Virus record (IMG/VR): IMGVR_UViG_2706794555_000001
Coordinates: 1-64,000 of that record
Length of the DNA stretch: 64,000 nt
Reading direction: 5' to 3' (one strand)
Source: a virus
Taxonomy: Duplodnaviria; Caudoviricetes
Shown here: positions 5,110 to 54,604 of the stretch, piece after piece
How positions within the stretch are numbered: position 1 is the first letter of the stretch
How the letters are laid out: the number at the start of each line of letters is the position of its first letter
The notes under the pieces: generated by a model
The model's input: only the letters and a program-made list of their open reading frames with translations
What the model was told of the DNA's origin: nothing
The model's database searches: none
Made by a program: the position numbers and the translations under genes

Positions 5110-5151
5110 CCTCGCCTGGCCGCCCCGGCGGCCACCCCACCAGGAGACACC

Positions 5152-5553
5152 GTGACCGAGCCCACCGCACCCGCCCTGTTCCTCCCGAAGCCCAGCACGC
5201 CCGTCGACCCCGACTTCCGCGAGACGCTCCAGGGCGGCCATGCCCTGGTCCTGGAGCACGCCCCCGGGCATGCGCTGGTGATCGAGTACGGGGACTGCGA
5301 GTTCTGGTTCTCGTGCCAGTGCAGCCATCGCCTGCCCATGCCCTCCCGCCCGAGCGCGTCCTTCGTCGCGCCCATGGAGCGGCTGATCGGACACACCCCG
5401 GACAGCGGGCACCCGCTGGTGCCGCACTGCCAGTGCGGTGAGCGCCTCGGCCGCCCGTTCCTGGCCGACGCCCTGAACGTGCACCTCGACCCGGCCCTGA
5501 CCCGCTGGGAGCAGCACTCGATGAGCCTCAGCACGACGGGAGTCCAGCGATGA
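5152..5553 (+). CDS. Hypothetical protein (two CQC motifs)
   Basis: AGGAG RBS, coupled ORF. Confidence 0.65.
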   Translation: MTEPTAPALFLPKPSTPVDPDFRETLQGGHALVLEHAPGHALVIEYGDCEFWFSCQCSHRLPMPSRPSASFVAPMERLIGHTPDSGHPLVPHCQCGERLGRPFLADALNVHLDPALTRWEQHSMSLSTTGVQR

Positions 5554-36113: not shown

Positions 36114-36587
36114 ATGGCCCTAATCCCTGACGAGAAGCGCGACGCGGTCCTCGCCGACATCCGGGCCGGGCAGAAAGCCCGCAACCAGATCGCCCGCGAC
36201 CACGGCGTCAGCGCCGCCAGCGTCACCGGCATCGCAAAGCGGGCAGGCATCACCGACGCCTTCGACCGGTCCATGACAGAGAAAGCCACCCGCGTCAAGG
36301 TCATCGACGCCAAGGCGGCGCGGATCCAACTGTCCCTGGACCTCCTCGACGATGCCCAGCGGTTCCGCAAGCGCGCCTGGGAGCCCTACCAGGTCGTTGT
36401 CAGCACCCCGCAGCGCACCGAAATCGTCGACGTTGATCTGCCGCCGCTGCAGGAGGCCCGCGCCGCCTACAACGCGGTGGGCATCTGCGTGGACAAGAGC
36501 CTGCGCCTGGAGCAGCACGACGCCGACACCGGCGGCGTCAACGCGGTCGACGACTGGCTGCGCGGAATGCTCGGCGAGACCGGCTAA
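36114..36587 (+). CDS. Terminase small subunit (HTH)
   Basis: RNQIARDHGVSAASVTGIA HTH; immediately upstream of large terminase. Confidence 0.75.
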   Translation: MALIPDEKRDAVLADIRAGQKARNQIARDHGVSAASVTGIAKRAGITDAFDRSMTEKATRVKVIDAKAARIQLSLDLLDDAQRFRKRAWEPYQVVVSTPQRTEIVDVDLPPLQEARAAYNAVGICVDKSLRLEQHDADTGGVNAVDDWLRGMLGETG

Positions 36588-39714: not shown

Positions 39715-39966
39715 ATGGCGGACAGCAAGAGCAAGGGCAAGCAGACCATCAAGTCGCCGGGCAAGAAGGCAGTCACCTTCAAGAAGGGCGCGCTCCACAA
39801 GCAGCTCGGCGTGCCCGCCGACAAGCCCATCCCGCCCGGGAAGATGGCCGCCGCACAGCGCGGCGACTTCGGGCCGACCGCGGCCAAGCGGGCGAACTTC
39901 GCGGCGAACGTCCTGGGGCAGGGCCAGAAGACCGCCGCCGCGAACCGCTCCAAGAAGGGCAAGTAG
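39715..39966 (+). CDS. Small Lys-rich basic protein
   Basis: KKGALHKQLGVPADKPIP...KRANFA. Confidence 0.75.
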   Translation: MADSKSKGKQTIKSPGKKAVTFKKGALHKQLGVPADKPIPPGKMAAAQRGDFGPTAAKRANFAANVLGQGQKTAAANRSKKGK

Positions 39967-39968
39967 CC

Positions 39969-40310
39969 ATGGCCGCGACCCCGCAGGACGCCCAGCGCCG
40001 CACCCCCGGCGCACCCGACAGCACCAAGCCCGCACATCTGGCCGCGAGCTCCGCGCGCACCCCCACGCACGCGGTCACCGGGCCCGCCGCGTGGGAGAAC
40101 GGCCGCGACGCGACCTCAACGCCCGCCGGACCCCCGTCACTGCGCGGTACCGCAGCCAGCGACGCCGACCCGACGTGTCAGGTCACGCAGACCGTCGGCA
40201 TGAACCCGAACCCGCCCGACGTTCGGTCGGCGTCGACTCCCGCTGACACCAACACGCCGGTGGTCGCCGGCAGCCCCACCGGCTTCACCCCGTTCATGAA
40301 CCAGTACTGA
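39969..40310 (+). CDS. Pro/Thr-rich disordered protein
   Basis: ORF in head operon. Confidence 0.6.
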   Translation: MAATPQDAQRRTPGAPDSTKPAHLAASSARTPTHAVTGPAAWENGRDATSTPAGPPSLRGTAASDADPTCQVTQTVGMNPNPPDVRSASTPADTNTPVVAGSPTGFTPFMNQY

Positions 40311-40321
40311 GGAGAGTCGCG

Positions 40322-40498
40322 ATGGCCAAGCAGATGCCGCCAGCCGGCCGCCCGCACAGGACTCCCGGCGCCCAGCCCCCGCCCCGTACCCCAGGCGCTA
40401 CCCAGGGAACTGCGCTGGAGCGCGCCCAGCTCGCCAAGCCCGGCCTGAGCAAGGCGCCGGACGCGAAGCCCACCCCGCAGGGCGGCTCCGGGTCCTGA
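40322..40498 (+). CDS. Small Pro-rich protein
   Basis: GAGGAG RBS; 58 aa. Confidence 0.6.
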   Translation: MAKQMPPAGRPHRTPGAQPPPRTPGATQGTALERAQLAKPGLSKAPDAKPTPQGGSGS

Positions 40499-40512
40499 CC
40501 GCAGGGGGTGCG

Positions 40513-41439
40513 ATGGCCACGCCACTGCCGTCCACCTCTGGCGATGCCCGGGAAGACCACGCCCAGCAGATCGGGGCGCACGTCGGTGCCGCTGTCGCGC
40601 AGGCGGAGCTCGCCGTGATCGCGACCGTCGCCATGCTGGCCAAGCGCGTCGCCACCGGATCCCTGCTGCCGACCGTGGCACGAAAGCAACTGGCCAGGAC
40701 CACCGACACCGTCCTCACGGCGGCGGTCCACCGGGCGCTCCTCGCCGACCGCCAACTGCCCGCCGATCTCGCCCCGTCGTTCGAGGCCGCCGTACAGTCC
40801 GCTGCCGTGTCGGCGCAGGACGCGCTCGCCGCCGCAACCGCATCCCCCCAGCAGCCGGCCGCGTCGGTACCCCGCATCCGCGTCGCGCAACTGGCCCTCG
40901 ACGCCCTTGCCGCGCAGGGCCTGGTCGGGTTCGTCGACCGGGCCGGGCGACGCTGGAACCTCGCCGGCTACGCGGAGATGGCCACCCGCACCGCCGTCTC
41001 CAACGCGTGGGACGAGCGGCAGGCCGACGAGCTCACCCGCATCGGCGTCGACCTGGTCGTCGTAGGAACGCACAGCACCGAAGGCTCTTGCAGGCTGTGC
41101 CGCCCCTGGCTCGGCCGCAGTCTGTCGCTGACCGGTGCGACCCCGGGATTCCCAACCCTGGCCGACGCCAAGGCCACCGGGTTCAGGCACCCGAACTGCC
41201 GCTGCTCCTGGGGTACCCCGGGGATGCTCACTGCCGTGCCGAGCCCGACCGACCTGGCCCGGTCCGCCGCGGCCTACACGGCAGCGCAGCGCCAGCGGAC
41301 CCTCGACCGCCGCCAACGCGCCGCACACCGGCGCATGGCGGCAGCGGTGACGCCGCAGGCCCGCACGACAGCCCGCCGTGAACTGGGCCTGATCCGCCTT
41401 GACCTCAGGCGCCGTCAGCACCCGTTCCGGGAGCGCTGA
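40513..41439 (+). CDS. Minor capsid protein (MuF-like)
   Basis: FVDRAGRRWNL.GYAEMATRT; C.LC.PW.G; HPNCRC. Confidence 0.9.
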   Translation: MATPLPSTSGDAREDHAQQIGAHVGAAVAQAELAVIATVAMLAKRVATGSLLPTVARKQLARTTDTVLTAAVHRALLADRQLPADLAPSFEAAVQSAAVSAQDALAAATASPQQPAASVPRIRVAQLALDALAAQGLVGFVDRAGRRWNLAGYAEMATRTAVSNAWDERQADELTRIGVDLVVVGTHSTEGSCRLCRPWLGRSLSLTGATPGFPTLADAKATGFRHPNCRCSWGTPGMLTAVPSPTDLARSAAAYTAAQRQRTLDRRQRAAHRRMAAAVTPQARTTARRELGLIRLDLRRRQHPFRER

Positions 41440-43719: not shown

Positions 43720-43838
43720 CCTGCGGCGTTGCAAGTCAGGCAGCCTCCCGACCGTGCTCTCGTCGCCGCTTTCCTGGGCTCGGCCGCGCGTTCTCGGAAA
43801 TGCATTCCTGGTTTTACAGAACGCGGTATTATCAGAGG

Positions 43839-44852
43839 GTGGATATCCTCTGTGAGATCGACCGCTGCCCGGATCCGGCGGAGGCGCGCGGCTGGTGCCG
43901 GATGCACTACCAGCGGTGGTACCGCCACGGTGACCCGCTCGCGCTCGTGAGGGCGCCGGAGACCGGTGGCATCTACGAGATCACCGGCCCGGAAGGGTGC
44001 ATCTACATCGGCTCGTCGGACAACGTCCGGCGGCGATGGAAGGCACACAAGGCTCGACTGCGGCGCCGCGACCATCACAACCGGCTCCTCCAGGCCAGTT
44101 GGGACGAGCACGGCGAAGCCGCCTTCACCTTCGCCTTGCTCGAAGAGATCGCGGATCCGGCCCAGCTGATCCCCGCAGAACAGCGCCATCTCGACACGGC
44201 CAAGGAAGCCGGCCGGGCGGTCTTCAACCTGACCTCCGACATACGGAGCCCCGCGCGGGGTCTAGTCCACACACCAGGGGCTCGCCTCAAGATGAGCGAC
44301 GCCGCCAAGGCCGCCTGCCTCAAGCCGGACAACCTGGCAGGGAAGCGCCGCCGCGTGCAGGGCGACCGCAACCCGGGCAGCAAGTTGGACGAGTCGACGG
44401 TTCGGGGGATCTGCGATCGGCTTCTCGCTGGCGCGCATCCCGCCGAGTTGGCGGCTGAGGTGGGCGTTTCGGAGAGCGCGGTCTACCAGATTCGGCGCGG
44501 GCAGATCTGGACTCACGTGGTGACTCCGGAGCTGGCGGCGGCGATGAAGGCGGTTCGTCAGAACGGTTGGGCGAAGCGCGAGGTGACTGACGAGCACCGT
44601 GCCCGGTTCGCGGCGGTCGGTCGGGCCAATCGGGGGAGTGCTCCTTCGGCTGCGCGTCGTGAGCAGATCTCGCAGCAGTCGCGGGGCGCTGGGAATCCGA
44701 AGGCGAAGCTCACCGAGGAGCAGGTTGCGGCGATCAGGCGGCTGCTGGCCGCGGGGGCGCGGAACAAGGATCTGGCCGGTCAGTTCGGCGTGCATCCGAA
44801 CACCATCTCGAAGATCAAGAGCGGCGTGATCTGGCCGCACGTCACCACGTAA
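43839..44852 (+). CDS. Free-standing GIY-YIG homing endonuclease with repeated HTH modules
   Basis: GIYEIT...IYIGSS...RWKAH; two NPxxKL-HTH units; leaderless TATTAT-N6-GTG. Confidence 0.88.
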   Translation: MDILCEIDRCPDPAEARGWCRMHYQRWYRHGDPLALVRAPETGGIYEITGPEGCIYIGSSDNVRRRWKAHKARLRRRDHHNRLLQASWDEHGEAAFTFALLEEIADPAQLIPAEQRHLDTAKEAGRAVFNLTSDIRSPARGLVHTPGARLKMSDAAKAACLKPDNLAGKRRRVQGDRNPGSKLDESTVRGICDRLLAGAHPAELAAEVGVSESAVYQIRRGQIWTHVVTPELAAAMKAVRQNGWAKREVTDEHRARFAAVGRANRGSAPSAARREQISQQSRGAGNPKAKLTEEQVAAIRRLLAAGARNKDLAGQFGVHPNTISKIKSGVIWPHVTT

Positions 44853-47897: not shown

Positions 47898-48259
47898 CTC
47901 TTCTGTCCCTGAATGCCACGCCGCAGCCGCGGACCGGATCGGCCGCGCCGGTGAACCTCACCGCCCTGCTGGCCGCCGGAACCCTCGGATCCAACACCGG
48001 GGTGTCGTTCGTCAACACCGGCCGCGAGGTGCTGCTCGTCAACGTCACCTCCGGCGGGTCGACGTGCTCGGTCGCGATCGGCACCACCATCGAAGGCCAG
48101 GCGGTGAGTCCACTCACGCCAGTGCTGACATCGTCGGCGATCAACGCGATCGGGCCGTTCCCGGCCGACGAGAACCAGCCCGGGGGCCTGATCCAGGTCA
48201 CGTTCGGCACGACCGCGAACGTGACCTGCGCCCTGCTGCAGAACACCGGCGTCCTCTAG
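47894..48259 (+). CDS. Beta-rich virion protein, probable paralogue of 44904
   Basis: Shares IGPF...GG.L/I pattern; GTGA coupling. Confidence 0.6.
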   Translation: MTLLSLNATPQPRTGSAAPVNLTALLAAGTLGSNTGVSFVNTGREVLLVNVTSGGSTCSVAIGTTIEGQAVSPLTPVLTSSAINAIGPFPADENQPGGLIQVTFGTTANVTCALLQNTGVL

Positions 48260-48283
48260 CGGTCCCCGCAACGCCAAACCGTC

Positions 48284-48306
48284 GCCCGCCATGTGCGGGC
48301 TTTTTT
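48284..48306 (+). terminator. Rho-independent terminator before the tail tube gene
   Basis: GCCCGC-CATGT-GCGGGC-TTTTTT. Confidence 0.8.
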
Positions 48307-48354
48307 CATGCCCGCGCCCGGCCTTGGGCGCCCTGACCCAAGGAGACGATTCCG

Positions 48355-48945
48355 ATTTCGGTCAATGCAGGCAATCTCGTCATGGGGCCGGCGCGGCTCT
48401 ATGTCGCCCCGTTCGGTTCCGCGGAGCCGCTGGACTCGGCGGTGACGCCGAACGGCACGGTCACGCCTCCGTCGTCTCCGTGGACCGATGTGGGCGGCAC
48501 TGACGGCGGTACCACGTACGAGGTCGACAACACGTACACGGCGCTGCAGGTCGACCAGATCATCATGGAGGTCGGTGCGCGCCTGACGGAGATGAAGTTC
48601 TCCGTGACCACGAAGCTGAGCGAGATGACGCTGGCGAACCTGAACACGGCGCTGAACAACATCGCGACGGTGGCCACGAACTCCGGGTACTCGACGATGG
48701 ACATCAACGTCGGGTCGTCAGCGTCGCAGCCCACCTATGCGGCGCTGATCATCGACGGGTGGGCGCCGATGCTGTCCACCGGCGCTCCGGCGCTGCGCCG
48801 CGTCATCGTCCGCAAGGTCCTGTCGCAGGTCAAGGCGACTCTGGCGTTCGACAAGAAGACCCAGCAGAGCATCGACTGCACTTTTCAGGCATATTTCGTC
48901 AGCAGCAGCATCGCACCGGTGCACATCGCCGACCAAACGAGCTGA
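48355..48945 (+). CDS. Major tail tube protein (probable ATT start; first ATG at 48382)
   Basis: NLVMGPARLY...WTDVGGTDGG...VDQ...EMTLANL; AAGGAG RBS 9 nt before in-frame ATT. Confidence 0.85.
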   Translation: MSVNAGNLVMGPARLYVAPFGSAEPLDSAVTPNGTVTPPSSPWTDVGGTDGGTTYEVDNTYTALQVDQIIMEVGARLTEMKFSVTTKLSEMTLANLNTALNNIATVATNSGYSTMDINVGSSASQPTYAALIIDGWAPMLSTGAPALRRVIVRKVLSQVKATLAFDKKTQQSIDCTFQAYFVSSSIAPVHIADQTS

Positions 48946-49008
48946 TTTCGCAGGTCAGTTGACCTAAGCGCATAACAAATAGGATGTGCTACGGGTAGAA
49001 TTGGGCCT

Positions 49009-49584
49009 ATGGCGAGGCCCAAAAATCCCGAGCACGAATACCTTCCCGACGGTCGCGGACGCCTCAAGGCACATGTCCGAATAGTCTGCGAGTCCTGCAG
49101 CAAAGAAGCCCTTGTCCGCGCAGACGGCAGCAAGCGCTTCTGCTCGAAGAGTTGCTCCACCACAAGGCAGCACCTCGAAGGACGCAGCAGGCAACTGCGC
49201 GGCGAGGAGCACTACGCTTGGAAGGGCTCGGACGCGAAGTACCAAGCCCTTCACCAGCGAGTGAGCCGAGCGCGAGGCCGCGCCGATCGCTGCGAATGGC
49301 GGCCATCGGTCGGCTGCGCAAGTCGCAAGTACGAGTGGTCGCACATTCATGGCACTGACACCGGAAACGTCGCGAACTATCGGTCGCTGTGCAAGACCTG
49401 CCATCAGCGATACGACGGCCAGACCGGGGCGGATCACGCGAATGCGAAGCTGACCGCCGAACAAGTAGCTGAGGTGCGAAGGAGATACGCCGCAGGAGGC
49501 GTGAGCCAGCAGGCTCTCGGCGACGAGTACGGCGTCCACCAGGCCACCATCAGCGCAGTGGTGCTGCGCCAGACGCACCGCTAG
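49009..49584 (+). CDS. Free-standing HNH homing endonuclease with C-terminal HTH
   Basis: CESC, FCSKSC, ALHQRV..RG, EWSH...NYRSLCKTCHQRYD; NAKLT-HTH; own promoter TAGAAT-N7-ATG; lower GC. Confidence 0.85.
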   Translation: MARPKNPEHEYLPDGRGRLKAHVRIVCESCSKEALVRADGSKRFCSKSCSTTRQHLEGRSRQLRGEEHYAWKGSDAKYQALHQRVSRARGRADRCEWRPSVGCASRKYEWSHIHGTDTGNVANYRSLCKTCHQRYDGQTGADHANAKLTAEQVAEVRRRYAAGGVSQQALGDEYGVHQATISAVVLRQTHR

Positions 49585-49592
49585 CCACACCT

Positions 49593-49627
49593 CGGAAGCC
49601 CGGCACTCCCCGAGTGCCGGGCTTCCG
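49593..49627 (+). terminator. Hairpin after the HNH gene
   Basis: 16-bp perfect stem CGGAAGCCCGGCACTC/GAGTGCCGGGCTTCCG. Confidence 0.7.
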
Positions 49628-49666
49628 CATGTCCACCCTCACTCTCACACCCTCGGAGTATCACCC

Positions 49667-50068
49667 ATGGCTGCACGGGTCACGGCCCCCACCAAGAAGA
49701 CCGCTGCGAAGAAGGCTCCTCCCGTGGTTGCGCTGCCTGCGCGCACCGCGGCGGGGGTTCCGTTCGAGCCGCTGCGACTGTCCTCGGCGGAAGCGGAGCC
49801 GCAGGAGACCGTCGACCTGTTCGAGATCGACGACGTCATGTACTCGGTGCCGCGCAAGCCGCGCGCGAACATCGCCCTGCAGTACCTCGACGCGGCGGAG
49901 CGCCTCGGCCCGGCCGCGGCGGACCTGTTCCTGCTGCGGGCGATGCTCGGCGAGGACGGCTACACGGCGCTGAGCCACTGCGAGTCCCTCACGCAGGAGC
50001 ATGTGGCGTGGGTGCTGGAGACCGTTCAGGGTCTGACGTTGGGGACGATCGAGGCCCCAAAAGCCTGA
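49667..50068 (+). CDS. Tail assembly chaperone (G)
   Basis: Between tail tube and tape measure; ends at slippery C CCA AAA. Confidence 0.85.
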   Translation: MAARVTAPTKKTAAKKAPPVVALPARTAAGVPFEPLRLSSAEAEPQETVDLFEIDDVMYSVPRKPRANIALQYLDAAERLGPAAADLFLLRAMLGEDGYTALSHCESLTQEHVAWVLETVQGLTLGTIEAPKA

Positions 50069-50388
50069 TGGTCGGCAGTGACCGCTGGCATCAGTTGCGG
50101 TGGGTGGTGCACTGCCTGGACGACATCGCCTCGGACATGTCGGTGTTCCATCGCGTCGACGACATCACGGCGCTGGACGGTCCGACGCTGATGCGCCTGG
50201 CGTGGCGGCTGCCCGCCTACGAGGGCGCGATGCGGTCCCGGGTGATGGCCGAGCAGGAAGAGAACCCGTCGCCGTCACCGCAGGGTCGGGTCTCGGCGCC
50301 GCGGGGTGAGAGCCGTGAGTGGAACCCGGGAACGCAGGCCACGTTGCAGGCCGACCCGGCACTCAAGGGCATTTTCAGCTTCAACTGA
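50056..50388 (+). CDS. Tail assembly chaperone extension (GT) via programmed -1 frameshift
   Basis: CCCAAAA at 50056-50062; -1 frame open to 50388 with RLPAYEGAMR motif. Confidence 0.8.
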   Translation, partial: PKSLMVGSDRWHQLRWVVHCLDDIASDMSVFHRVDDITALDGPTLMRLAWRLPAYEGAMRSRVMAEQEENPSPSPQGRVSAPRGESREWNPGTQATLQADPALKGIFSFN

Positions 50389-50428
50389 TCGGGCTTGCGC
50401 CCCCTGGTGTGGTCGGAGGTGACTTCCG

Positions 50429-53400
50429 ATCCCCGAAGGTTTCCGCGTCGCAAAAGCTTGGGTGGAGGTCACTCCGGACACGGAGGGCTTCAAGGAGAAG
50501 GTCCAGGCCGCGGTCGACGAGGCGCTGGCCGGGGTGCGCGGGCGTGCCCGCGTGGACCTGGACACCGCCGCGTTCGACGCCAAGCTCGACGACGCGAAGG
50601 CGCGCCTGGACGAGTTCGGCGGCGACCGGTCCGAGGCGTCGCTGCACCTGAACAGCGAGCAGTTGTCGGCCGCGGCCGACGAGGCGCACGAGAAGCTCGA
50701 CGAGCTCGACTCCCGGTCCGCGCGGCCCGATGTGGCTCTCGGGACCGATGACCTCGACGCGAAACTCGACGAGGCCCGCGAGAGGATCCAGGAGCTCGAC
50801 GCCGAACACGCCCGCCCCGACGTCACCCTGAACACGGGCGAGTTCGACGCCAAACTCGACGAGGCCAGGGCCCGACTTGCCGCCCTGAACGAGGACTCCG
50901 CCTCACCGCGGGTCTACGCGCGCGACGCCCAGGGCCGCTTCGCCGGCGGGGGCAGCGGGGAGGGCGAAGGCGGCGTCGGCCGGTCCTACCTGCGGGACAG
51001 CCGCGGCCGGTTCATCGGCGCCGGCGGTCACGGCGAGGAGCCCGCCGCGGAGCCGGCAGAGGAGCGGGCCAGCCGGTTCCGTGCCCTGCTCGGCGGTGTC
51101 ACCCGCCGCCTGCAGGGCGCCGGCGACCAGGGCGGCCAGTTCCTGAGCAGTGCCGGCGGCGGTGTCATGTCGTTCCTGGGCGAGCACGCCCTGGGCGCCA
51201 GCCTGACCGCGGGCGTCACCGCTCTGGCGCCGGGCATCGCCGGTGCGGGCATGGGCCTGGGTCTGCTCGGTGGCGCGGGGATCCTGGGCCTCGGCGGGAT
51301 CGGCGAGGCCGTGTCGGCGGCGCACCAGGCGTCGATGAACATCGGCATGACGCCGCAGCAGAAAGCCGCGACGCAGTTCTCGAACCAGGTCGCGGTCCAG
51401 CAGGCGCAGAACCAGGTCGGCCAGGCGCACATGCAGGCCGCCCAGGACGCGATCACGTCGGCGGAGTCCATCGAGTCCGCGGAGATGAACCTCGCCTCGA
51501 CGGAGCGGAACGCCGCCGAGCAGCAGGTCCAGGCGTTGCAGTCGGTGCGGCAGGCCCAGCAGGGCGTCGAGGAGGCCAACTACGGGCTGTCGGAGGCGCA
51601 GTACAACCTGACGCAGGCGTGGGAGACCGCGCGGGAGCAGATCCGGCAGCTCAACGACCAGCTCGCGGACTCGAAGCTGAACGTGCAACAGGCACAGTTG
51701 GCGATCAAGCAGGCCATCTACCAGCAGCGCCTGGTCGACCAGAACGCCTATTCGACGCTGCTGGACCGCCAGCAGGCGTCCCTGGCTGTGGCGCAGGCCC
51801 AGCAGCAGCTCACCGACGCGCAGGACCAGCAGACCGCGGCGCAGTACAAGGCGAACCTGGTCAACAAGGAGGGCGTTGCCGGGCAGCAGACCGTCATCCA
51901 GGCCAAGCAGGGCGTCACGGCGGCGCAGTACCAGCAGCTCGACGCGCAGGCGCAGTATGCGGATGCGCAGCGGCAGTTGACGCTGACGGAGCTGAACAAC
52001 GCCTCGCAGGTCAAGCAGGCGCAGATGCAGTTGTCGGCGGCGCAGGAGCAGGCAGCGTTCCAGCGGCGCATGGATGCGCGGACCGTTGCGATCGCCGAGC
52101 AGAACGTGTCGAACACCATCAAGGAGCAGCAGCTCCAGTGGGCTGCGACGATGTCGACGGAGAACCAGGCCGCGCTGCTGTTCCAGAAGGACATGTCGCG
52201 CCTGACCCCGGCGGCGCGCGCGGTGGTCGAGCAGATCCTGTCGATGCGTACCGCCTTTCATGCGATGGCGGGGGTGGCGCAGAACGCGATCGCGCCGGGC
52301 GTGTCGCTGATGCTTACGGGCCTGATGGCGGGCATGCCGAAGCTGACCCAGGGTGTGGGCCAGGTCGGCAATGTGATCTCGGGGGTGTTCGCGAAGGTCG
52401 GCCGGTCGCTGCAGTCCGCGTCTGGGGCCAAGGTGTTGGACGGGCTGGTCGCCAACGGCGTCCGGTTCGCTCAGATCGTTGTGCCCGCTCTGACGGGGTT
52501 CGTGGGGGCGCTTGCGAAGGTCGGTTCGCAGAAGGGCGCGGTCGACGGGCTCGCGAACCTGATCGGCGGACTGGCCGGCGGTCTGACGAACGTCGTCACC
52601 GCGGTCGCCCCGTTCACCAGTTCCTTGTCGCTGCTGGGCACGGTCCTGGGTAAGGCCTTGGGGCCGGTCGGAACACTGCTGGGCGGTGTCGTCGGGCAGC
52701 TCGCGAAGACCCTGGCTCCGCTGCTGGTGCAGCTCCTGCCGTCCTTCCGGATGCTGGTCGGCCTGCTGGGCGCGCAGCTCACGCAGGCGCTCCAGGAGGC
52801 GGCTCCGGCGCTGGTCCAGCTGGTCACCGTGGCGGTGCAACTGCTGCCCGCGGTGACGCCGCTGGTCAGCATCTTCGGCTCCGGGCTGGCGGGCGCGCTG
52901 CGGGTGGTGAGCGCTGTCCTGCAGGGCCTGAACACCTTCCTGGCCGCGAACATCAGCTGGGTGCGCCCGCTGGCGTCGATCGTGCTGGGGATCATCGCCG
53001 CGATGAAGATCTGGACGATCGTGCAGGGCGCGTTCAACCTGGTCATGGACGCCAATCCGATCTCGATCGTGGCACTGGCGATCGCGGCCCTGGTCGGCGG
53101 AGTGGTCTACGCCTACGGGCACTTCACGTGGTTCCGCCAGGGCGTGCAGGCCGCGTTCTCCGCGATCTCGGCTGAGGCGCTGTTCCTGTGGCACAACGTG
53201 TTCGACCCCATGTGGCACGGCATCGAAGCGGGGGCGTCCTGGCTGTACAACAACGGGATCAAGCTGTACTTCGAGATGATCCGCCAGGAGTTCACGGTCC
53301 TGGAGTCCGTGGCCCTGTGGATGTGGCACAACGTCTTCGATCCGCTGTGGCACGGGATCGTGGCCGGCGCGTCCGGGTTCGTTTCGATGTTCAAGACGAT

Positions 53401-54604
53401 CTGGTCGTCCCTGGAGACCACGTTCAAGACGCCCGTAAACTTCTTGATCAACACCGTCTACAAGGGTGGCATCGAGGCCCTGTGGAACAAGGTCGTCGGC
53501 GCCGTGGGCCTGAGCAGCCTCAACCTGCCTGACATCACGCCCCTGGCCGCCGGCGGTGTTCTTCCCGGGTACGCGCCGGGGCGCGACTCCGTCCCCGCGG
53601 TGCTGTCGCCGGGTGAAGGCGTCCTGGTGCCCGAGGCGGTCCGGGCCATCGGCCCGGGTACCGTCAACGCCCTCAACGCGAAGTACGGCGGCGGACGCGG
53701 GTCCGGCGGCGGCCACTACTCCGGCGGCGGTATCGCTGGTCTGGCCGGGTCGATCTGGCACGGCGTCACCTCGGCGGCGAGCAAGGCCGTCGACATGGCG
53801 AAGATCACTGCTGCACTGGCGACGGGCAACACCACGGCGCTCAGCAACGCGCTGACTGCCCTGGTGGGCACCAATGCGGTCGGCAACTACGCCAAGATGA
53901 TGCTCGGGGTGCCGACGACGCTGATCGGCCACCTGACCAAGGCCATCGTGTCGATGTTCACCGGCAGCAGTGGCGGCTCCGGCGGCACGTCCACCCCGTC
54001 CACGCCATCTGGAACCGTTGCACAGTGGTTCCAGCAGGCCGTCCAGCTCACCGGTGTGGGGGCCGGGTGGCTGCCGGACCTGGAGACGATCGGGCACTAC
54101 GAGTCGGGCGACAACCCCAACGCGATCAACAACACCGACTCCAACGCCATGGCCGGGGATCCGTCCCGCGGCGTCATGCAGACGATCATGTCGACGTTCC
54201 AGGCCTACCACCAGGCCGGAACCAGCAGCAACATCTTCGACCCGGTCGCGAACATCGCGGCGGCGATCAACTACATCAAGTCGCGATACGGGACGGTCGG
54301 CAACGTGCCCGGCATCCGCTCCCTCGCCTCCGGGGGCAGCTACGTCGGGTACGACTCCGGCGGCTGGCTCATGCCGGATTCGATGCCCGTCAACCATCTC
54401 GGGAAGCCCGAGGCGGTCCTCACCCCGCAGGAGTCCGCGGCGTTCGTCGCCATCGTGCGCCAGCTCACCTCCCAGGGTGTCGGGGCCAGCGGGCTGGGAC
54501 GAGGGGTCAACGTCGTACAGAATTTCAATGGCACGATGTGGCCCAATCCCGAACAGCAGGCCGCAATGCGTCGTGACCTTGCACTCGCATTGGGTGGGGC
54601 CTGA
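50429..54604 (+). CDS. Tape measure protein with C-terminal lytic transglycosylase domain (probable ATC start; first GTG at 50462)
   Basis: About 1390 aa, Ala/Gln-rich helical repeats; ESGDNPNAIN..DSNA...RGVMQTI..TF...DPVANIAAAINY. Confidence 0.93.
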   Translation: MPEGFRVAKAWVEVTPDTEGFKEKVQAAVDEALAGVRGRARVDLDTAAFDAKLDDAKARLDEFGGDRSEASLHLNSEQLSAAADEAHEKLDELDSRSARPDVALGTDDLDAKLDEARERIQELDAEHARPDVTLNTGEFDAKLDEARARLAALNEDSASPRVYARDAQGRFAGGGSGEGEGGVGRSYLRDSRGRFIGAGGHGEEPAAEPAEERASRFRALLGGVTRRLQGAGDQGGQFLSSAGGGVMSFLGEHALGASLTAGVTALAPGIAGAGMGLGLLGGAGILGLGGIGEAVSAAHQASMNIGMTPQQKAATQFSNQVAVQQAQNQVGQAHMQAAQDAITSAESIESAEMNLASTERNAAEQQVQALQSVRQAQQGVEEANYGLSEAQYNLTQAWETAREQIRQLNDQLADSKLNVQQAQLAIKQAIYQQRLVDQNAYSTLLDRQQASLAVAQAQQQLTDAQDQQTAAQYKANLVNKEGVAGQQTVIQAKQGVTAAQYQQLDAQAQYADAQRQLTLTELNNASQVKQAQMQLSAAQEQAAFQRRMDARTVAIAEQNVSNTIKEQQLQWAATMSTENQAALLFQKDMSRLTPAARAVVEQILSMRTAFHAMAGVAQNAIAPGVSLMLTGLMAGMPKLTQGVGQVGNVISGVFAKVGRSLQSASGAKVLDGLVANGVRFAQIVVPALTGFVGALAKVGSQKGAVDGLANLIGGLAGGLTNVVTAVAPFTSSLSLLGTVLGKALGPVGTLLGGVVGQLAKTLAPLLVQLLPSFRMLVGLLGAQLTQALQEAAPALVQLVTVAVQLLPAVTPLVSIFGSGLAGALRVVSAVLQGLNTFLAANISWVRPLASIVLGIIAAMKIWTIVQGAFNLVMDANPISIVALAIAALVGGVVYAYGHFTWFRQGVQAAFSAISAEALFLWHNVFDPMWHGIEAGASWLYNNGIKLYFEMIRQEFTVLESVALWMWHNVFDPLWHGIVAGASGFVSMFKTIWSSLETTFKTPVNFLINTVYKGGIEALWNKVVGAVGLSSLNLPDITPLAAGGVLPGYAPGRDSVPAVLSPGEGVLVPEAVRAIGPGTVNALNAKYGGGRGSGGGHYSGGGIAGLAGSIWHGVTSAASKAVDMAKITAALATGNTTALSNALTALVGTNAVGNYAKMMLGVPTTLIGHLTKAIVSMFTGSSGGSGGTSTPSTPSGTVAQWFQQAVQLTGVGAGWLPDLETIGHYESGDNPNAINNTDSNAMAGDPSRGVMQTIMSTFQAYHQAGTSSNIFDPVANIAAAINYIKSRYGTVGNVPGIRSLASGGSYVGYDSGGWLMPDSMPVNHLGKPEAVLTPQESAAFVAIVRQLTSQGVGASGLGRGVNVVQNFNGTMWPNPEQQAAMRRDLALALGGA

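What the first reader, a model, noticed from the sequence alone, without database searches (positions are those of the whole stretch)
48322..48384. Major tail tube gene appears to start at ATT, sharing the TTCCGAT context of the tape measure start
Seen: in-frame TGA at 48334, AAGGAG at 48340-48345, ATT at 48355 giving (M)SVNAGNLVMGPARLY; the ATG at 48382 lacks an RBS and would cut the NL..GPA motif. Both odd starts read TTCCG-ATY, and CCTTGGG/CCCAAGG pairs over this SD too. Established: AUU/AUC initiation is repressed by IF3 (infC autoregulation). Inference: the two genes that build the tail are co-gated by non-AUG initiation, possibly an IF3- or phage-factor-dependent late switch.
Basis: partly seen in the sequence, partly recalled or inferred. 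Interest (0 to 1): 0.72.

Follow-up and report, generated by a model that had tools for sequence, protein, structure and literature searches.

The report
Tail genes lacking normal start codons
In this soil-bacterium prophage the tail tube and tape measure genes carry ATT and ATC where relatives carry ATG, GTG or TTG, so both probably depend on weak start codons; this looks like drift at these sites, not a designed switch.

Summary
The tube frame opens after TGA 48334. AAGGAG lies at 48340-45 and ATT at 48355, and the first ATG/GTG/TTG is ATG 48382, inside the conserved N-terminus. The tape measure (TMP) frame has GGAGGTGA, then 6 nt, then ATC 50429.

Both ATY codons sit at the homologous start sites. 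Of 44 aligned tube start regions, all carry ATG, GTG, TTG, ATC or ATT at the 48355 position. Of 26 TMP start regions, 22 carry ATG or GTG at the 50429 position. The ribosome-binding sites serve these codons, not the downstream ATG and GTG.

Contigs from four soil metagenomes read ATG GTT where the window reads ACG ATT (48346-51). The window has therefore lost an in-frame ATG that lies directly after the Shine-Dalgarno (SD) sequence. All but three ATY-bearing tube genes surveyed keep an in-frame NTG there.

Best reading (0.5): near-cognate initiation at ATT and ATC, guided by strong or extended SDs. This is tolerable for the low-copy TMP, which has a published precedent in mycobacteriophage Corndog. 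It probably lowers tube yield.

Main rival (0.3): the lost ATG was the real tube start, and the tube gene is crippled.

The proposed co-gated, IF3-dependent late switch is not supported. Tube-ATY relatives have canonical TMP starts, and the SD hairpin folds no better than shuffled sequence.

The parts
48284..48308 (+). Terminator-like hairpin (GCCCGC..GCGGGC) plus a T-run between the upstream gene (stop at 48259) and the tube gene
   Evidence: The same GCGGGC-T-run-CATGCCCGCGCCC stretch is visible upstream of the tube gene in many relatives (lower-case flanks).
48323..48343 (+). Inverted repeat CCTTGGG / CCCAAGG overlapping the first 4 nt of the SD
   Evidence: The fold is no better than shuffles (z -0.88). 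The left arm is replaced in L005-type relatives.
48334..48336 (+). In-frame TGA that closes the tube frame upstream
48340..48353 (+). SD AAGGAG with further complementarity (GAUUC) to the 16S 3' tail. Predicted duplex -13.4 kcal/mol, ending 1 nt before ATT.
   Evidence: The 16S 3' end was confirmed in same-genus genomes.
48346..48351 (+). ACG ATT. All four laid metagenome runs read ATG GTT here (48347 C>T, 48349 A>G), so an in-frame ATG was lost in this genome.
   Evidence: Outgroups L015, L017 and L046 also have NTG GTT.
48347..48358 (+). Direct repeat CGATTC CGATTT. Both window-specific changes turn unit 1 into the letters of unit 2.
   Evidence: Sequence compared. A single templated event is an inference.
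48355..48357 (+). ATT, the homologous SD-served start position of the tube gene
   Evidence: ATG 17, ATC 10, GTG 7, TTG 7, ATT 3 at this position in 44 aligned unique contexts. Isolated phages start here with ATG.
48355..48945 (+). Major tail (tube) protein gene, 196 codons if read from ATT
   Evidence: It lies between the tail terminator gene and the chaperone and TMP genes.
48382..48384 (+). First canonical start (ATG), used by the deposited gene call (187 aa). It has no SD, and most relatives have a Leu codon here.
   Evidence: P0002; CTC 24 and ATG 2 of 44.
49009..49584 (+). HNH or homing-endonuclease-like ORF inserted between the tube and chaperone genes. It is absent from one metagenome contig.
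   Evidence: In one search the X6 contig skips 48971-49595 and has 13 other letters instead.
50415..50422 (+). SD GGAGGTGA, an 8-nt match to the complement of the 16S tail. Its TGA is the in-frame stop that closes the TMP frame upstream.
   Evidence: Duplex -18.7 kcal/mol; 0 of 2000 random 24-mers reach this value.
50429..50431 (+). ATC, at the position where relatives' TMP genes start with ATG or GTG
   Evidence: ATG 12, GTG 10, shifted ATG 1, interrupted 3, out of 26 unique contexts.
50429..54604 (+). Tape measure protein gene, 1391 codons if read from ATC
   Evidence: phrog_6090, residues 7-499 aligned to profile 8-428..
50462..50464 (+). First canonical start (GTG) of the TMP frame, used by the deposited call (1380 aa). 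It has no SD and would remove the conserved PEGFRVAKAW.
   Evidence: duplex -7.0.

Best explanation
Both genes are translated from near-cognate start codons at their ancestral, SD-served start sites: AUU 48355 for the tube protein and AUC 50429 for the tape measure protein (TMP).

In each case a strong SD holds the 30S subunit so that the AUH codon lies in the P site. For the tube gene this is AAGGAG plus further complementarity to the 16S 3' tail. For the TMP gene it is GGAGGUGA. Initiator tRNA then reads the codon with one mismatch. Initiation is expected to be IF3-sensitive and several-fold to about 100-fold weaker than at AUG.

For the TMP, which is a low-copy protein, this is a tolerable state that a close relative probably shares.

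For the tube gene, ATT at this site is older and is shared with the nearest relatives. Those relatives also carry an in-frame ATG 9 nt upstream, directly after the SD. This genome lost that ATG through two substitutions 2 nt apart, which may have been one templated event. ATT is therefore the only SD-served initiation codon left, and tube yield is probably reduced.

Shown: the positions, the homology, the SD placement, the codon spectrum at the site and the derived state of 48346-51.

Inferred: that AUU and AUC actually initiate here, with what yield, and that IF3 acts on them.
For: **1. Homologous start sites.**
- Tube: in 44 aligned unique start contexts from genomes, metagenomes and viral contigs, the codon aligned with 48355 is ATG 17, ATC 10, GTG 7, TTG 7, ATT 3.
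- In 9 of the 11 aligned contexts of the distant clade an in-frame TGA lies between the SD and this codon, so it must be the start there.
- The isolated phages KimJongPhill and OscarSo are annotated to start there with ATG, 6-7 nt behind the SD.
- TMP: 22 of 26 relatives' contexts have ATG or GTG exactly at the ATC position, behind GG(A/G)GGTGA.

**2. The site is constrained to initiator-capable codons.**
- Such codons fill 44 of 44 contexts at this position, against 16 of 44 at the hydrophobic codon +8 (Fisher 1e-11).
- Val is GTG in 7 of 7 contexts, against 17 of 41 at codon +2.
- Leu is TTG in 7 of 7 contexts, against 10 of 44 at codon +7. TTG makes up 7.9% of Leu codons in these genes.
- Ten of these 14 GTG or TTG genes also have an in-frame NTG at -9, so the site keeps start function beside that NTG.

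**3. SD placement.**
- Predicted duplexes with the 16S tail are -13.4 kcal/mol before ATT and -18.7 before ATC.
- They are -5.2 before the downstream ATG and -7.0 before the downstream GTG.
- The median of 20 translation initiation regions (TIRs) in the structural module is -10.25.
- In L059 the ATG of the conserved GGGGATGATC block is out of frame. In L053 the -9 codon is TGA. The block is nevertheless kept in both.

**4. Two other relatives have no canonical start at or before this site.**
- L011 has AAGGAG, 9 nt, then ATC.
- L013 has ATT CCC ATT, and its first canonical codon is at +53.

**5. The TMP state probably persists in a relative.**
- The cluster mate P0191 is also called from MEVTPD.
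- It is 98.99% identical, and all of its differences lie in the first 400 residues.
- X1 contigs have no difference across 50024-50609.

**6. Precedents.**
- infC starts with ATC in Streptomyces, and IF3 represses a non-canonical start there (PMC5472188, passages).
- The host infC has GGAGGA-TCC-ATC.
- S. aureus AUU and AUA starts with extended SDs gave about 10% of AUG expression, and up to 30% for one AUA start (ccpN) in rich medium (PMC13009471, passages).
- The Corndog tmp gene has ACG where relatives have ATG. Peptides were found upstream of the first canonical start, and the phage grows normally (PMC4351075, passages).

**7. The rest of the structural module shows no obvious lesion.** TerS, TerL, portal, major head protein, connectors, Dit and endolysin all appear intact.
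Against: 1. All four laid metagenome runs have ATG at 48346-48. The window's ACG is derived and was seen only here.
2. ATC or ATT at the tube start is common when an in-frame NTG lies at -9 (11 of 23 contexts) and rare without one (2 of 21; Fisher 0.008). This suggests that the NTG matters when the SD-served codon is weak, and that the window's state is disfavoured. The contexts are related to each other and their 5' ends recombine, so all of these tests overstate significance.
3. Of the 60 listed homologues called from the -9 ATG, 2 have Thr at the 48355 position. There the upstream ATG must be the start.
4. ATG, not GTG, dominates at -9 (15 against 6). This fits a start codon better than 16S pairing.
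5. In E. coli, AUU and AUC gave 1-2% of AUG expression, or 0.02-3% in other constructs (bioRxiv 10.1101/063800, passages). That is little for the most abundant tail protein.
6. There is no expression or N-terminal data.
Confidence: 0.5

Rival explanations
1. The real tube start in this lineage is the ATG at 48346, so the protein begins MVPISVNAGN and ATT 48355 is an ordinary Ile codon. This genome lost that ATG (ATG GTT became ACG ATT). The tube gene now has no effective start, and the prophage is tail-deficient, meaning a recent knock-down or knock-out. The TMP's ATC is a second, older lesion or a tolerated weak start.
For: - In one search all four runs read T at 48347 and G at 48349. The X1 contigs laid within 48000-50609 (with gaps between them) are otherwise identical.
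- In one search, 60 of the 120 listed homologues are called from this ATG. The residue at the 48355 position is then I 32, L 18, V 8, T 2.
- In one search, ATY at the 48355 position is associated with an in-frame NTG at -9 (11 of 23 against 2 of 21).
- In some searches, the sister pair L020/L054 (GTG at -9, ATC) and L021/L057 (TGA in between, ATG) looks like a shift of the start.
- In one search, near-cognate codons gave about 1-2% of AUG expression in E. coli.
Against: - The ATG follows AAGGAG or AAGGGG directly in every such locus, with a spacer of 0. No other SD lies 5-10 nt upstream of it.
- The SD keeps a constant distance to the 48355 position in both clades.
- GTG and TTG at the 48355 position are kept without synonymous drift even when the upstream NTG is present.
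- The ATGATCC block resembles the complement of the 16S tail. It is kept in L059, L053 and L052, where it cannot be an in-frame start.
- No other lesion was seen in the structural module.
Confidence: 0.3
2. The tube gene is translated from ATG 48382, as in the deposited call. This gives a protein that lacks the first 9 residues. The TMP is likewise translated from GTG 50462.
For: - These are the first canonical starts in their frames.
- Automatic gene calls use them: P0002 and P0122, and also P0193 and P0191 in a relative.
- Met occurs at this tube position in several close homologues.
Against: - Neither codon has an SD. The duplexes are -5.2 and -7.0 kcal/mol, against a random median of -6.6.
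- The codon aligned with 48382 is Leu in 35 of 44 contexts.
- Starting there would delete SVNAGNLV from the tube protein and PEGFRVAKAW from the TMP. These are the most conserved N-terminal segments.
- Family profiles align from residue 4 of the ATT-start tube protein and residue 7 of the ATC-start TMP.
Confidence: 0.1
3. The letters at 48347 and 48349 are an assembly or consensus artefact, or a minority allele. The real phage has ATG at 48346.
For: - The only two differences from the X1 contigs laid within 48000-50609 lie 2 nt apart, inside a short direct quasi-repeat.
- The genome is a 139-contig draft.
Against: - The deposited sequence is otherwise identical to independent contigs.
- X1 depth is only about 4.5, so it is unlikely to be the sole source of this assembly.
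- Two simultaneous base errors in an assembly are rare.
- The reads of the window's own assembly were not available.
Confidence: 0.07

Closest known systems
infC (IF3) autoregulated AUU/AUC start (E. coli AUU; Streptomyces ATC) and Streptomyces sigR GTC start (PMC5472188, passages read)
   Same: A near-cognate codon lies behind a good SD with no canonical alternative at the conserved N-terminus. It acts in the same host family. The host's own infC shows GGAGGA-TCC-ATC.
   Different: In infC and sigR the odd codon is conserved across orthologues and has a shown regulatory role. Here the orthologues mostly carry ATG, GTG or TTG. The tube's total lack of a canonical start is specific to one genome. 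IF3 dependence is untested.
Tape measure gene of Cluster O mycobacteriophages Corndog, Firecracker and YungJamal (PMC4351075, abstract and passages read)
   Same: An actinobacteriophage TMP gene has no canonical start, and a near-cognate codon (ACG) sits exactly where relatives have ATG. An HNH gene is inserted nearby in the tail module. Those phages are viable and show no obvious reduction in TMP.
   Different: The codon is ACG rather than ATC. There the HNH gene lies between the chaperone and tmp genes, whereas here it lies between the tube and chaperone genes. Peptide evidence exists there and none exists here. The authors left ribosomal bypassing open as an alternative.
S. aureus non-canonical starts with extended, start-proximal SD-anti-SD pairing (cvfC1 AUU, ccpN AUA, infC AUA; PMC13009471, abstract and passages read)
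   Same: A weak start codon is paired with a long SD whose complementarity runs through the spacer towards the start. G:U can replace A:U in that pairing. Here positions -6 (A or G) and -4 (C or T) vary in a wobble-compatible way.
   Different: The phylum is different. Extended pairing is only predicted here. The same letters can also be read as an in-frame NTG plus Ile or Val plus Pro codons, so the pairing is not proven.
Phage major tail tube proteins (PF25681 Phage_TTP_17; 'major tail protein' of Streptomyces phages Zuko/KimJongPhill and Microbacterium phages)
   Same: Sequence similarity is 37-41% identity over 99% of the query. Gene order is the same, and the N-terminal motif xVxxxNLxxGP is shared.
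   Different: The isolated phages start with ATG at the shared site.

Membership tests
Genes with a functional near-cognate (AUU/AUC) start codon under IF3 discrimination (infC type) | No ATG, GTG or TTG is available in frame at or upstream of the conserved N-terminus. | tested here: met
   Tube: an in-frame TGA lies at 48334 and the first canonical codon is at +9. TMP: an in-frame TGA lies at 50420 and the first canonical codon is at +11.
Genes with a functional near-cognate (AUU/AUC) start codon under IF3 discrimination (infC type) | An SD lies at working distance from the odd codon. | tested here: met
   AAGGAG plus 9 nt, and GGAGGTGA plus 6 nt. The duplexes are -13.4 and -18.7 kcal/mol. 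Relatives with ATG show the same spacing.
Genes with a functional near-cognate (AUU/AUC) start codon under IF3 discrimination (infC type) | The odd codon is conserved among orthologues. | tested here: not met
   Tube: ATY occurs in 13 of 44 contexts and the rest are ATG, GTG or TTG. Eleven of the 13 have an in-frame NTG 9 nt upstream. TMP: 0 of 26 relatives' DNA contexts have ATY at the site, and only one near-identical protein call suggests that the state is shared.
Genes with a functional near-cognate (AUU/AUC) start codon under IF3 discrimination (infC type) | The protein N-terminus maps to the odd codon, and expression responds to IF3 level or to infC fidelity alleles. | not testable with these tools
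   No RNA run was listed, and there are no proteomic data.
Phage major tail tube protein (PF25681 Phage_TTP_17) | The protein matches the profile above the curated cut-off. | tested here: inconclusive
   The window protein scores 21.4 bits against a cut-off of 27. Most close homologues carry a precomputed PF25681 hit. phrog_2175 matches at 1.4e-20.
Phage major tail tube protein (PF25681 Phage_TTP_17) | The gene sits between the tail terminator gene and the chaperone and tape measure genes, and has homologues annotated as major tail protein in isolated phages. | tested here: met
Tape measure protein | A long protein (over 1000 aa) lies downstream of the chaperones and matches TMP profiles. | tested here: met
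   phrog_6090 at 2.7e-22 and four further TMP phrogs. Length is 1391 aa. Homologues carry a lysozyme or SLT domain.
Corndog-type TMP with non-canonical initiation | A near-cognate codon sits at the position of relatives' ATG, and no canonical start lies upstream of the conserved N-terminus. | tested here: met
   and for the definition.
Corndog-type TMP with non-canonical initiation | Peptides have been detected upstream of the first canonical start. | not testable with these tools
   No proteomic data are available.

The most novel reading that the evidence does not exclude
In this family of actinobacterial siphophage tail modules, near-cognate AUU or AUC initiation guided by an extended SD-16S pairing is a recurrent, selected way of setting tail-protein output.
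- About a quarter of the surveyed tube genes carry ATC or ATT at the SD-served site.
- The in-frame 'ATG' that annotators use is partly a by-product of the extended SD (..GGGGAUGAUCC..).
- TMP genes repeatedly weaken their starts. Here this is ATC behind GGAGGTGA. In L003, L048 and L008 it is a 6-10-codon leader ORF (MPEGFR-stop) followed by CGC-ATY, which suggests a coupled restart.
- Under this reading, the prophage in the window is a natural case in which both the tube and the TMP depend on IF3-sensitive starts.
Probability: 0.22. Interest if true: 0.65.

Novelty: new member of a known kind. Interest (0 to 1): 0.4.

Why it matters
Gene callers allow only ATG, GTG and TTG. They therefore truncate both proteins here (187 and 1380 aa calls) and probably mis-set the tube start in many relatives. 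If the SD-served codon is the true start, the 199-aa "MIP/MVP" forms would be 3 residues too long.

If ATT and ATC do initiate here, the locus adds a phage major tail gene to the very short list of bacterial and phage genes with near-cognate starts. It would also be a second actinophage TMP after Corndog. It would offer a natural pair of alleles (ATG GTT and ACG ATT at 48346-51) for testing how much an SD-adjacent ATG contributes.

If ATT does not initiate, the finding is an ordinary start-codon lesion in a prophage.

Tried and rejected
- **RNA evidence.** No RNA holder was listed for the stretch.
- **TMP start in other runs.** Read laying allowed one call, and its table of differing letters was cut at 48896. 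The TMP start in X2, X6 and X7 could therefore not be read. For those three runs, ATT at 48355 rests on the absence of a row in a truncated table. For X1 it is certain, because record 2 has only the two listed differences.
- **DNA behind truncated protein calls.** This leaves unread the DNA behind tube proteins P0009, P0025, P0056, P0075, P0094 and P0101, behind P0193 and P0191, and behind TMPs P0142, P0144, P0145, P0154, P0157 and P0164. P0193 matches the X2/X6/X7 variant, which has the ATG at -9, yet it is called from the downstream ATG. A truncated call is therefore not proof that a start is missing.
- **Near-identical viral contigs.** Exact-pattern scans of viral contigs for near-identical start regions found nothing.
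- **RNA structure.** Folds over both SDs are no better than shuffles, with z between -0.15 and -1.21. The hairpin idea was dropped.
- **Structure prediction.** The AlphaFold2 model of the tube protein was poor (mean pLDDT 57.8). It was not used to judge the N-terminal 9 residues, and no fold search was run.
- **Suspected broken terminase.** An in-frame stop at 36585 turned out to separate an upstream ORF with no family hit, read here as the small terminase subunit from its position only, from TerL, which starts at GTG 36591 and has Terminase_6N and 6C domains.
- **Possible third case.** The minor capsid gene (40513-41439) has 70 open codons upstream. Their composition looks non-coding, so this was not pursued.
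- **Genome-wide scan.** A scan for SD-served ATY codons ahead of the first canonical start found ATT 3 and ATC 15 among 2766 such codons in 8026 ORFs. There is no enrichment, so the host shows no general use of ATY starts. The filter missed the TMP and infC, so the scan is crude. At that rate, two hits in 22 genes has P of about 0.001.
- **T4 precedent.** A search for a recalled T4 precedent of internal AUU initiation in gene 26 found no paper holding that phrase. It is not used.
- **Supplements.** Supplementary files of the papers were not opened.
Full report
**What is there.**

The window holds a siphovirus-type prophage structural module on the + strand. In order it encodes:
- an upstream ORF with no family hit, taken as the small terminase subunit from its position;
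- the large terminase subunit, portal and major head protein;
- a homing-endonuclease-like ORF;
- connector proteins and the tail terminator;
- the tube protein, followed by an HNH ORF;
- the chaperones, tape measure protein (TMP), Dit and further tail proteins;
- the endolysin.

The tube gene has one copy in an 8.46-Mb draft genome of 71% GC. It was found in 0 of 22 other genomes of the genus and in 14 of 400 sampled genomes of the family. It is a sporadic prophage gene. Its named relatives are mostly in Kitasatospora.

The tube frame is closed by TGA at 48334. It then reads CCC AAG GAG ACG ATT CCG ATT TCG GTC AAT ... GTC ATG. No ATG, GTG or TTG occurs before 48382.

The TMP frame is closed by the TGA of GGAGGTGA (50415-22). 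It then reads CTT CCG ATC CCC GAA GGT TTC CGC ..., and its first canonical codon is GTG 50462.

I inspected 22 + strand ORFs of the module. Only these two pair a strong SD with ATY and lack a nearby canonical start. The others have ATG, GTG or TTG behind an SD.

The predicted duplex with the 16S 3' tail was confirmed against three same-genus genomes (9 copies each, at the 3' end of the SSU model). The energies are:

| Site | Duplex (kcal/mol) |
|---|---|
| Upstream of ATT 48355 | -13.4 |
| Upstream of ATC 50429 | -18.7 |
| Upstream of ATG 48382 | -5.2 |
| Upstream of GTG 50462 | -7.0 |
| Median of 20 module start regions | -10.25 |
| Median of random 24-mers | -6.6 |

**Both codons sit at homologous start sites.**

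For the TMP, there are 26 unique start contexts from relatives. They carry ATG (12) or GTG (10) exactly where the window has ATC, behind GG(A/G)GGTGA. One has an ATG two codons upstream. Three are interrupted, as described below.

Of the 69 TMP homologues listed, 47 begin with the conserved x[ED]GF[RKE][IV]A motif by my pattern, plus P0188 by eye. Seven, including the window's own call, begin 6-14 residues into it. Fourteen begin elsewhere.

For the tube gene, I collected DNA from genomes, metagenomes and viral contigs. This gave 46 unique contexts including the window. Two of them (L013 and L040) have an indel and were left out of the position counts.

At the codon aligned with 48355, the remaining 44 contexts read ATG 17, ATC 10, GTG 7, TTG 7 and ATT 3. 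In 9 of the 11 aligned contexts of the distant clade an in-frame TGA lies between AAGGAG or GGAGG and this codon, with the same 9-nt spacing as in the window. The codon must be the start there. The two isolated phages I read, KimJongPhill and OscarSo, are annotated to start there with ATG.

**The site behaves as a start site even where another in-frame start exists.**

Neighbouring codons show free synonymous mixing, but this position does not:

| Position | Codons observed |
|---|---|
| Start position (48355 equivalent) | Val is GTG in 7 of 7; Leu is TTG in 7 of 7 |
| +2 (Val) | GTC 18, GTG 17, GTT 4, GTA 2 |
| +7 (Leu) | CTC 16, CTG 16, TTG 10, CTT 2 |
| +8 (hydrophobic) | Nine different codons |

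TTG makes up 7.9% of Leu codons and GTG 29% of Val codons in these genes. The Fisher tests against the neighbouring positions give 0.009, 0.0002 and 1e-11.

These contexts are related to each other. The 5' ends are also exchanged as blocks: L003 and L005 have nearly identical proteins but different letters through the first ten codons. The tests therefore overstate significance. The direction of the result is still clear.

**The complication: a second in-frame start position 9 nt upstream.**

In the clade that contains the window, most genes have ATG (15), GTG (6) or TTG (2) at -9, directly after the SD purines. An example is AAGGGG ATG ATC CCT GTG.

Annotators use this codon. Of the 120 listed homologues, 60 start there and 43 start at the 48355 position. 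Six start at +2, 4 are longer and 7, including the window, are truncated.

Three observations favour the -9 codon as a functional start:
- ATC or ATT at the SD-served site occurs in 11 of 23 contexts with such an NTG, but in only 2 of 21 without one (Fisher 0.008).
- Two homologues have Thr at the SD-served position.
- ATG outnumbers GTG at -9.

Four observations argue against it:
- Its SD spacing is zero in every locus.
- The block [AG]TG-[AG]T[CT]-CC is complementary to the GGAUCA part of the 16S tail, with wobble-compatible variation.
- The block persists where it cannot be an in-frame start: L059 is out of frame, L053 has TGA at -9 and L052 has GGG.
- A 2026 study of S. aureus shows that start-proximal extended SD pairing fixes start choice and accompanies AUU and AUA starts. 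Those starts gave about 10% of AUG expression, and up to 30% for one AUA start (ccpN) in rich medium (PMC13009471, passages).

I cannot separate these two readings with sequence alone. A dual-start arrangement fits all of the counts.

**The window's copy is the derived state.**

I laid contigs from four soil-metagenome runs, from four different studies, on 48000-50700. All four read T at 48347 and G at 48349, which gives ATG GTT.

X1 is otherwise identical. Record 2 covers 48254-48566 and has only these two differences. The other X1 records have none.

X2, X6 and X7 differ at 53-57 letters per roughly 970 nt. Outgroups L015, L017 and L046 also have NTG GTT.

The window has therefore lost the upstream ATG through two transitions 2 nt apart. 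Both changes turn TGGTTC into CGATTC, which matches the next unit CGATTT (48353-58). A single templated event is my inference. An assembly artefact cannot be excluded.

ATT at 48355 is shared by X1. No difference is listed there for the other three runs, but that table was truncated.

Only two other contexts lack a canonical start at or before the SD-served site:
- L011 has AAGGAG, 9 nt, then ATC.
- L013 has ATT CCC ATT, and its first canonical codon is at +53.

**The TMP.**

ATC is present in X1, which shows no difference across 50024-50609.

The window TMP's cluster mate P0191 is also called from MEVTPD. It comes from a 19.7-kb contig and is 98.99% identical, with all of its differences in the first 400 residues. 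This suggests that the same non-canonical start exists in a haplotype whose 5' part differs by about 5% in DNA. It is only a suggestion, because gene callers are fallible. P0193 comes from that same variant, which has the ATG at -9, and is nevertheless called from the downstream ATG.

A direct precedent exists. In the Cluster O mycobacteriophages Corndog, Firecracker and YungJamal the tmp gene has no canonical start, and ACG sits where Dylan and Catdawg have ATG. Peptides map upstream of the first canonical start, an HNH gene is inserted nearby and the phages grow normally (PMC4351075, abstract and passages).

From general knowledge of siphophage tails, the TMP is needed in a few copies per virion and the tube protein in hundreds. 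A weak start is therefore plausible for the TMP and costly for the tube protein.

**Mechanism and the IF3 idea.**

IF3-mediated repression of non-canonical starts has been shown in Streptomyces, and infC there starts with ATC (PMC5472188, passages). The host's infC reads GGAGGA-TCC-ATC-AGC-ACC-GAG (C129:139510).

Nothing indicates a designed joint switch:
- The loci with ATC or ATT at the tube start whose TMP start could be read have ATG or GTG there (L005/L029, L043, L046, L049, L051, L014, L054), a shifted ATG (L017) or the interrupted form (L048).
- The SD-covering hairpins fold no better than shuffles.
- The host genome shows no general excess of SD-served ATY codons.

The shared GGAG..TTCCGAT motif is rare: 2 in the window against 0.07 expected, and 6 in the whole genome. 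However, it was defined after the fact. TTCC can pair with the SD, which gives a 9-bp hairpin of -14.7 kcal/mol at the TMP site (z -1.12), or with the 16S tail. Its meaning is open.

**Verdict.**

The most likely state of this copy is initiation at ATT 48355 and ATC 50429, with reduced yield (0.5).

The main rival is that the lost ATG was the working tube start and that the prophage is now tail-deficient (0.3).

Downstream starts (0.1) and an artefact (0.07) are less likely.

This is a new member of a known kind, namely near-cognate starts behind strong SDs, with a Corndog-type TMP. It is not a new regulatory system. It is of moderate interest, mainly for annotation practice and as a natural test case.

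Noticed in passing
L003 (about 5128-5170), L048 and L008, at the TMP 5' ends (contexts printed): Three relatives with different downstream sequence have the TMP gene interrupted at the same point, after the codons for MPEGFR. L003 and L048 have a 6-nt insert that gives an in-frame TAG. L008 has a 7-nt insert that gives TAA in the TMP frame plus a frameshift. In each case CGC ATC or ATT GCx (R-I-A...) follows directly, and no canonical start follows for about 10 or more codons. This looks like a short leader ORF with a possible coupled restart at ATY, or like recurrent lesions at a hot spot.
   Followed up: partly
window 49009-49584, with a promoter-like site at 48972-49001: An HNH or homing-endonuclease-like ORF lies between the tube and chaperone genes. 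One metagenome contig (X6) joins 48971 to 49595 with 13 other letters, so the ORF is a mobile insertion that is absent from a close relative. Corndog-type phages also carry an HNH gene near a TMP with a non-canonical start.
   Followed up: partly
window 43800-44852: A second homing-endonuclease-like ORF (phrog_7168, phrog_314 and HNH or HTH families) lies between the major head gene and the connector genes.
   Followed up: no
window 48284-48308, and the same place in many loci: A terminator-like hairpin with a T-run lies just upstream of the tube gene. Its sequence (GCGGGC, T-run, CATGCCCGCGCCC) recurs in many relatives, so the tube gene is transcribed through or past a conserved terminator-like element.
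   Followed up: no
G000 contig C129, 139495-139530: The host infC has GGAGGA-TCC-ATC followed by STEPRINDRIRVPEVRLVG. This matches the published ATC start of Streptomyces infC. In-frame ATG codons without an SD lie upstream and could mislead gene callers.
   Followed up: partly
window 50429-54604 compared with P0191: The TMP of a metagenome relative is identical from about residue 400 to the end. It differs at 13 residues plus one gap in the first 400. The tube and chaperone region of that variant differs by about 5-6% in DNA. This indicates a recombination junction inside the TMP gene.
   Followed up: partly
L003 compared with L005/L043; L021/L057 compared with L020/L054: Pairs of nearly identical tube proteins differ sharply in the start region and the first ten or so codons. 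The differences include many synonymous changes, a different -9 codon and a different start codon. The 5' end of the gene with its ribosome-binding site seems to be exchanged as a block.
   Followed up: partly
window 39966-40513: Between the 83-codon ORF that follows the portal gene and the minor capsid protein 2 gene (40513-41439, PF06152) lies a Pro/Thr/Ala-rich 115-codon ORF (to about 40310) and then about 200 nt without a clear frame. The Pfam match to the minor capsid protein begins at profile position 163.
   Followed up: no
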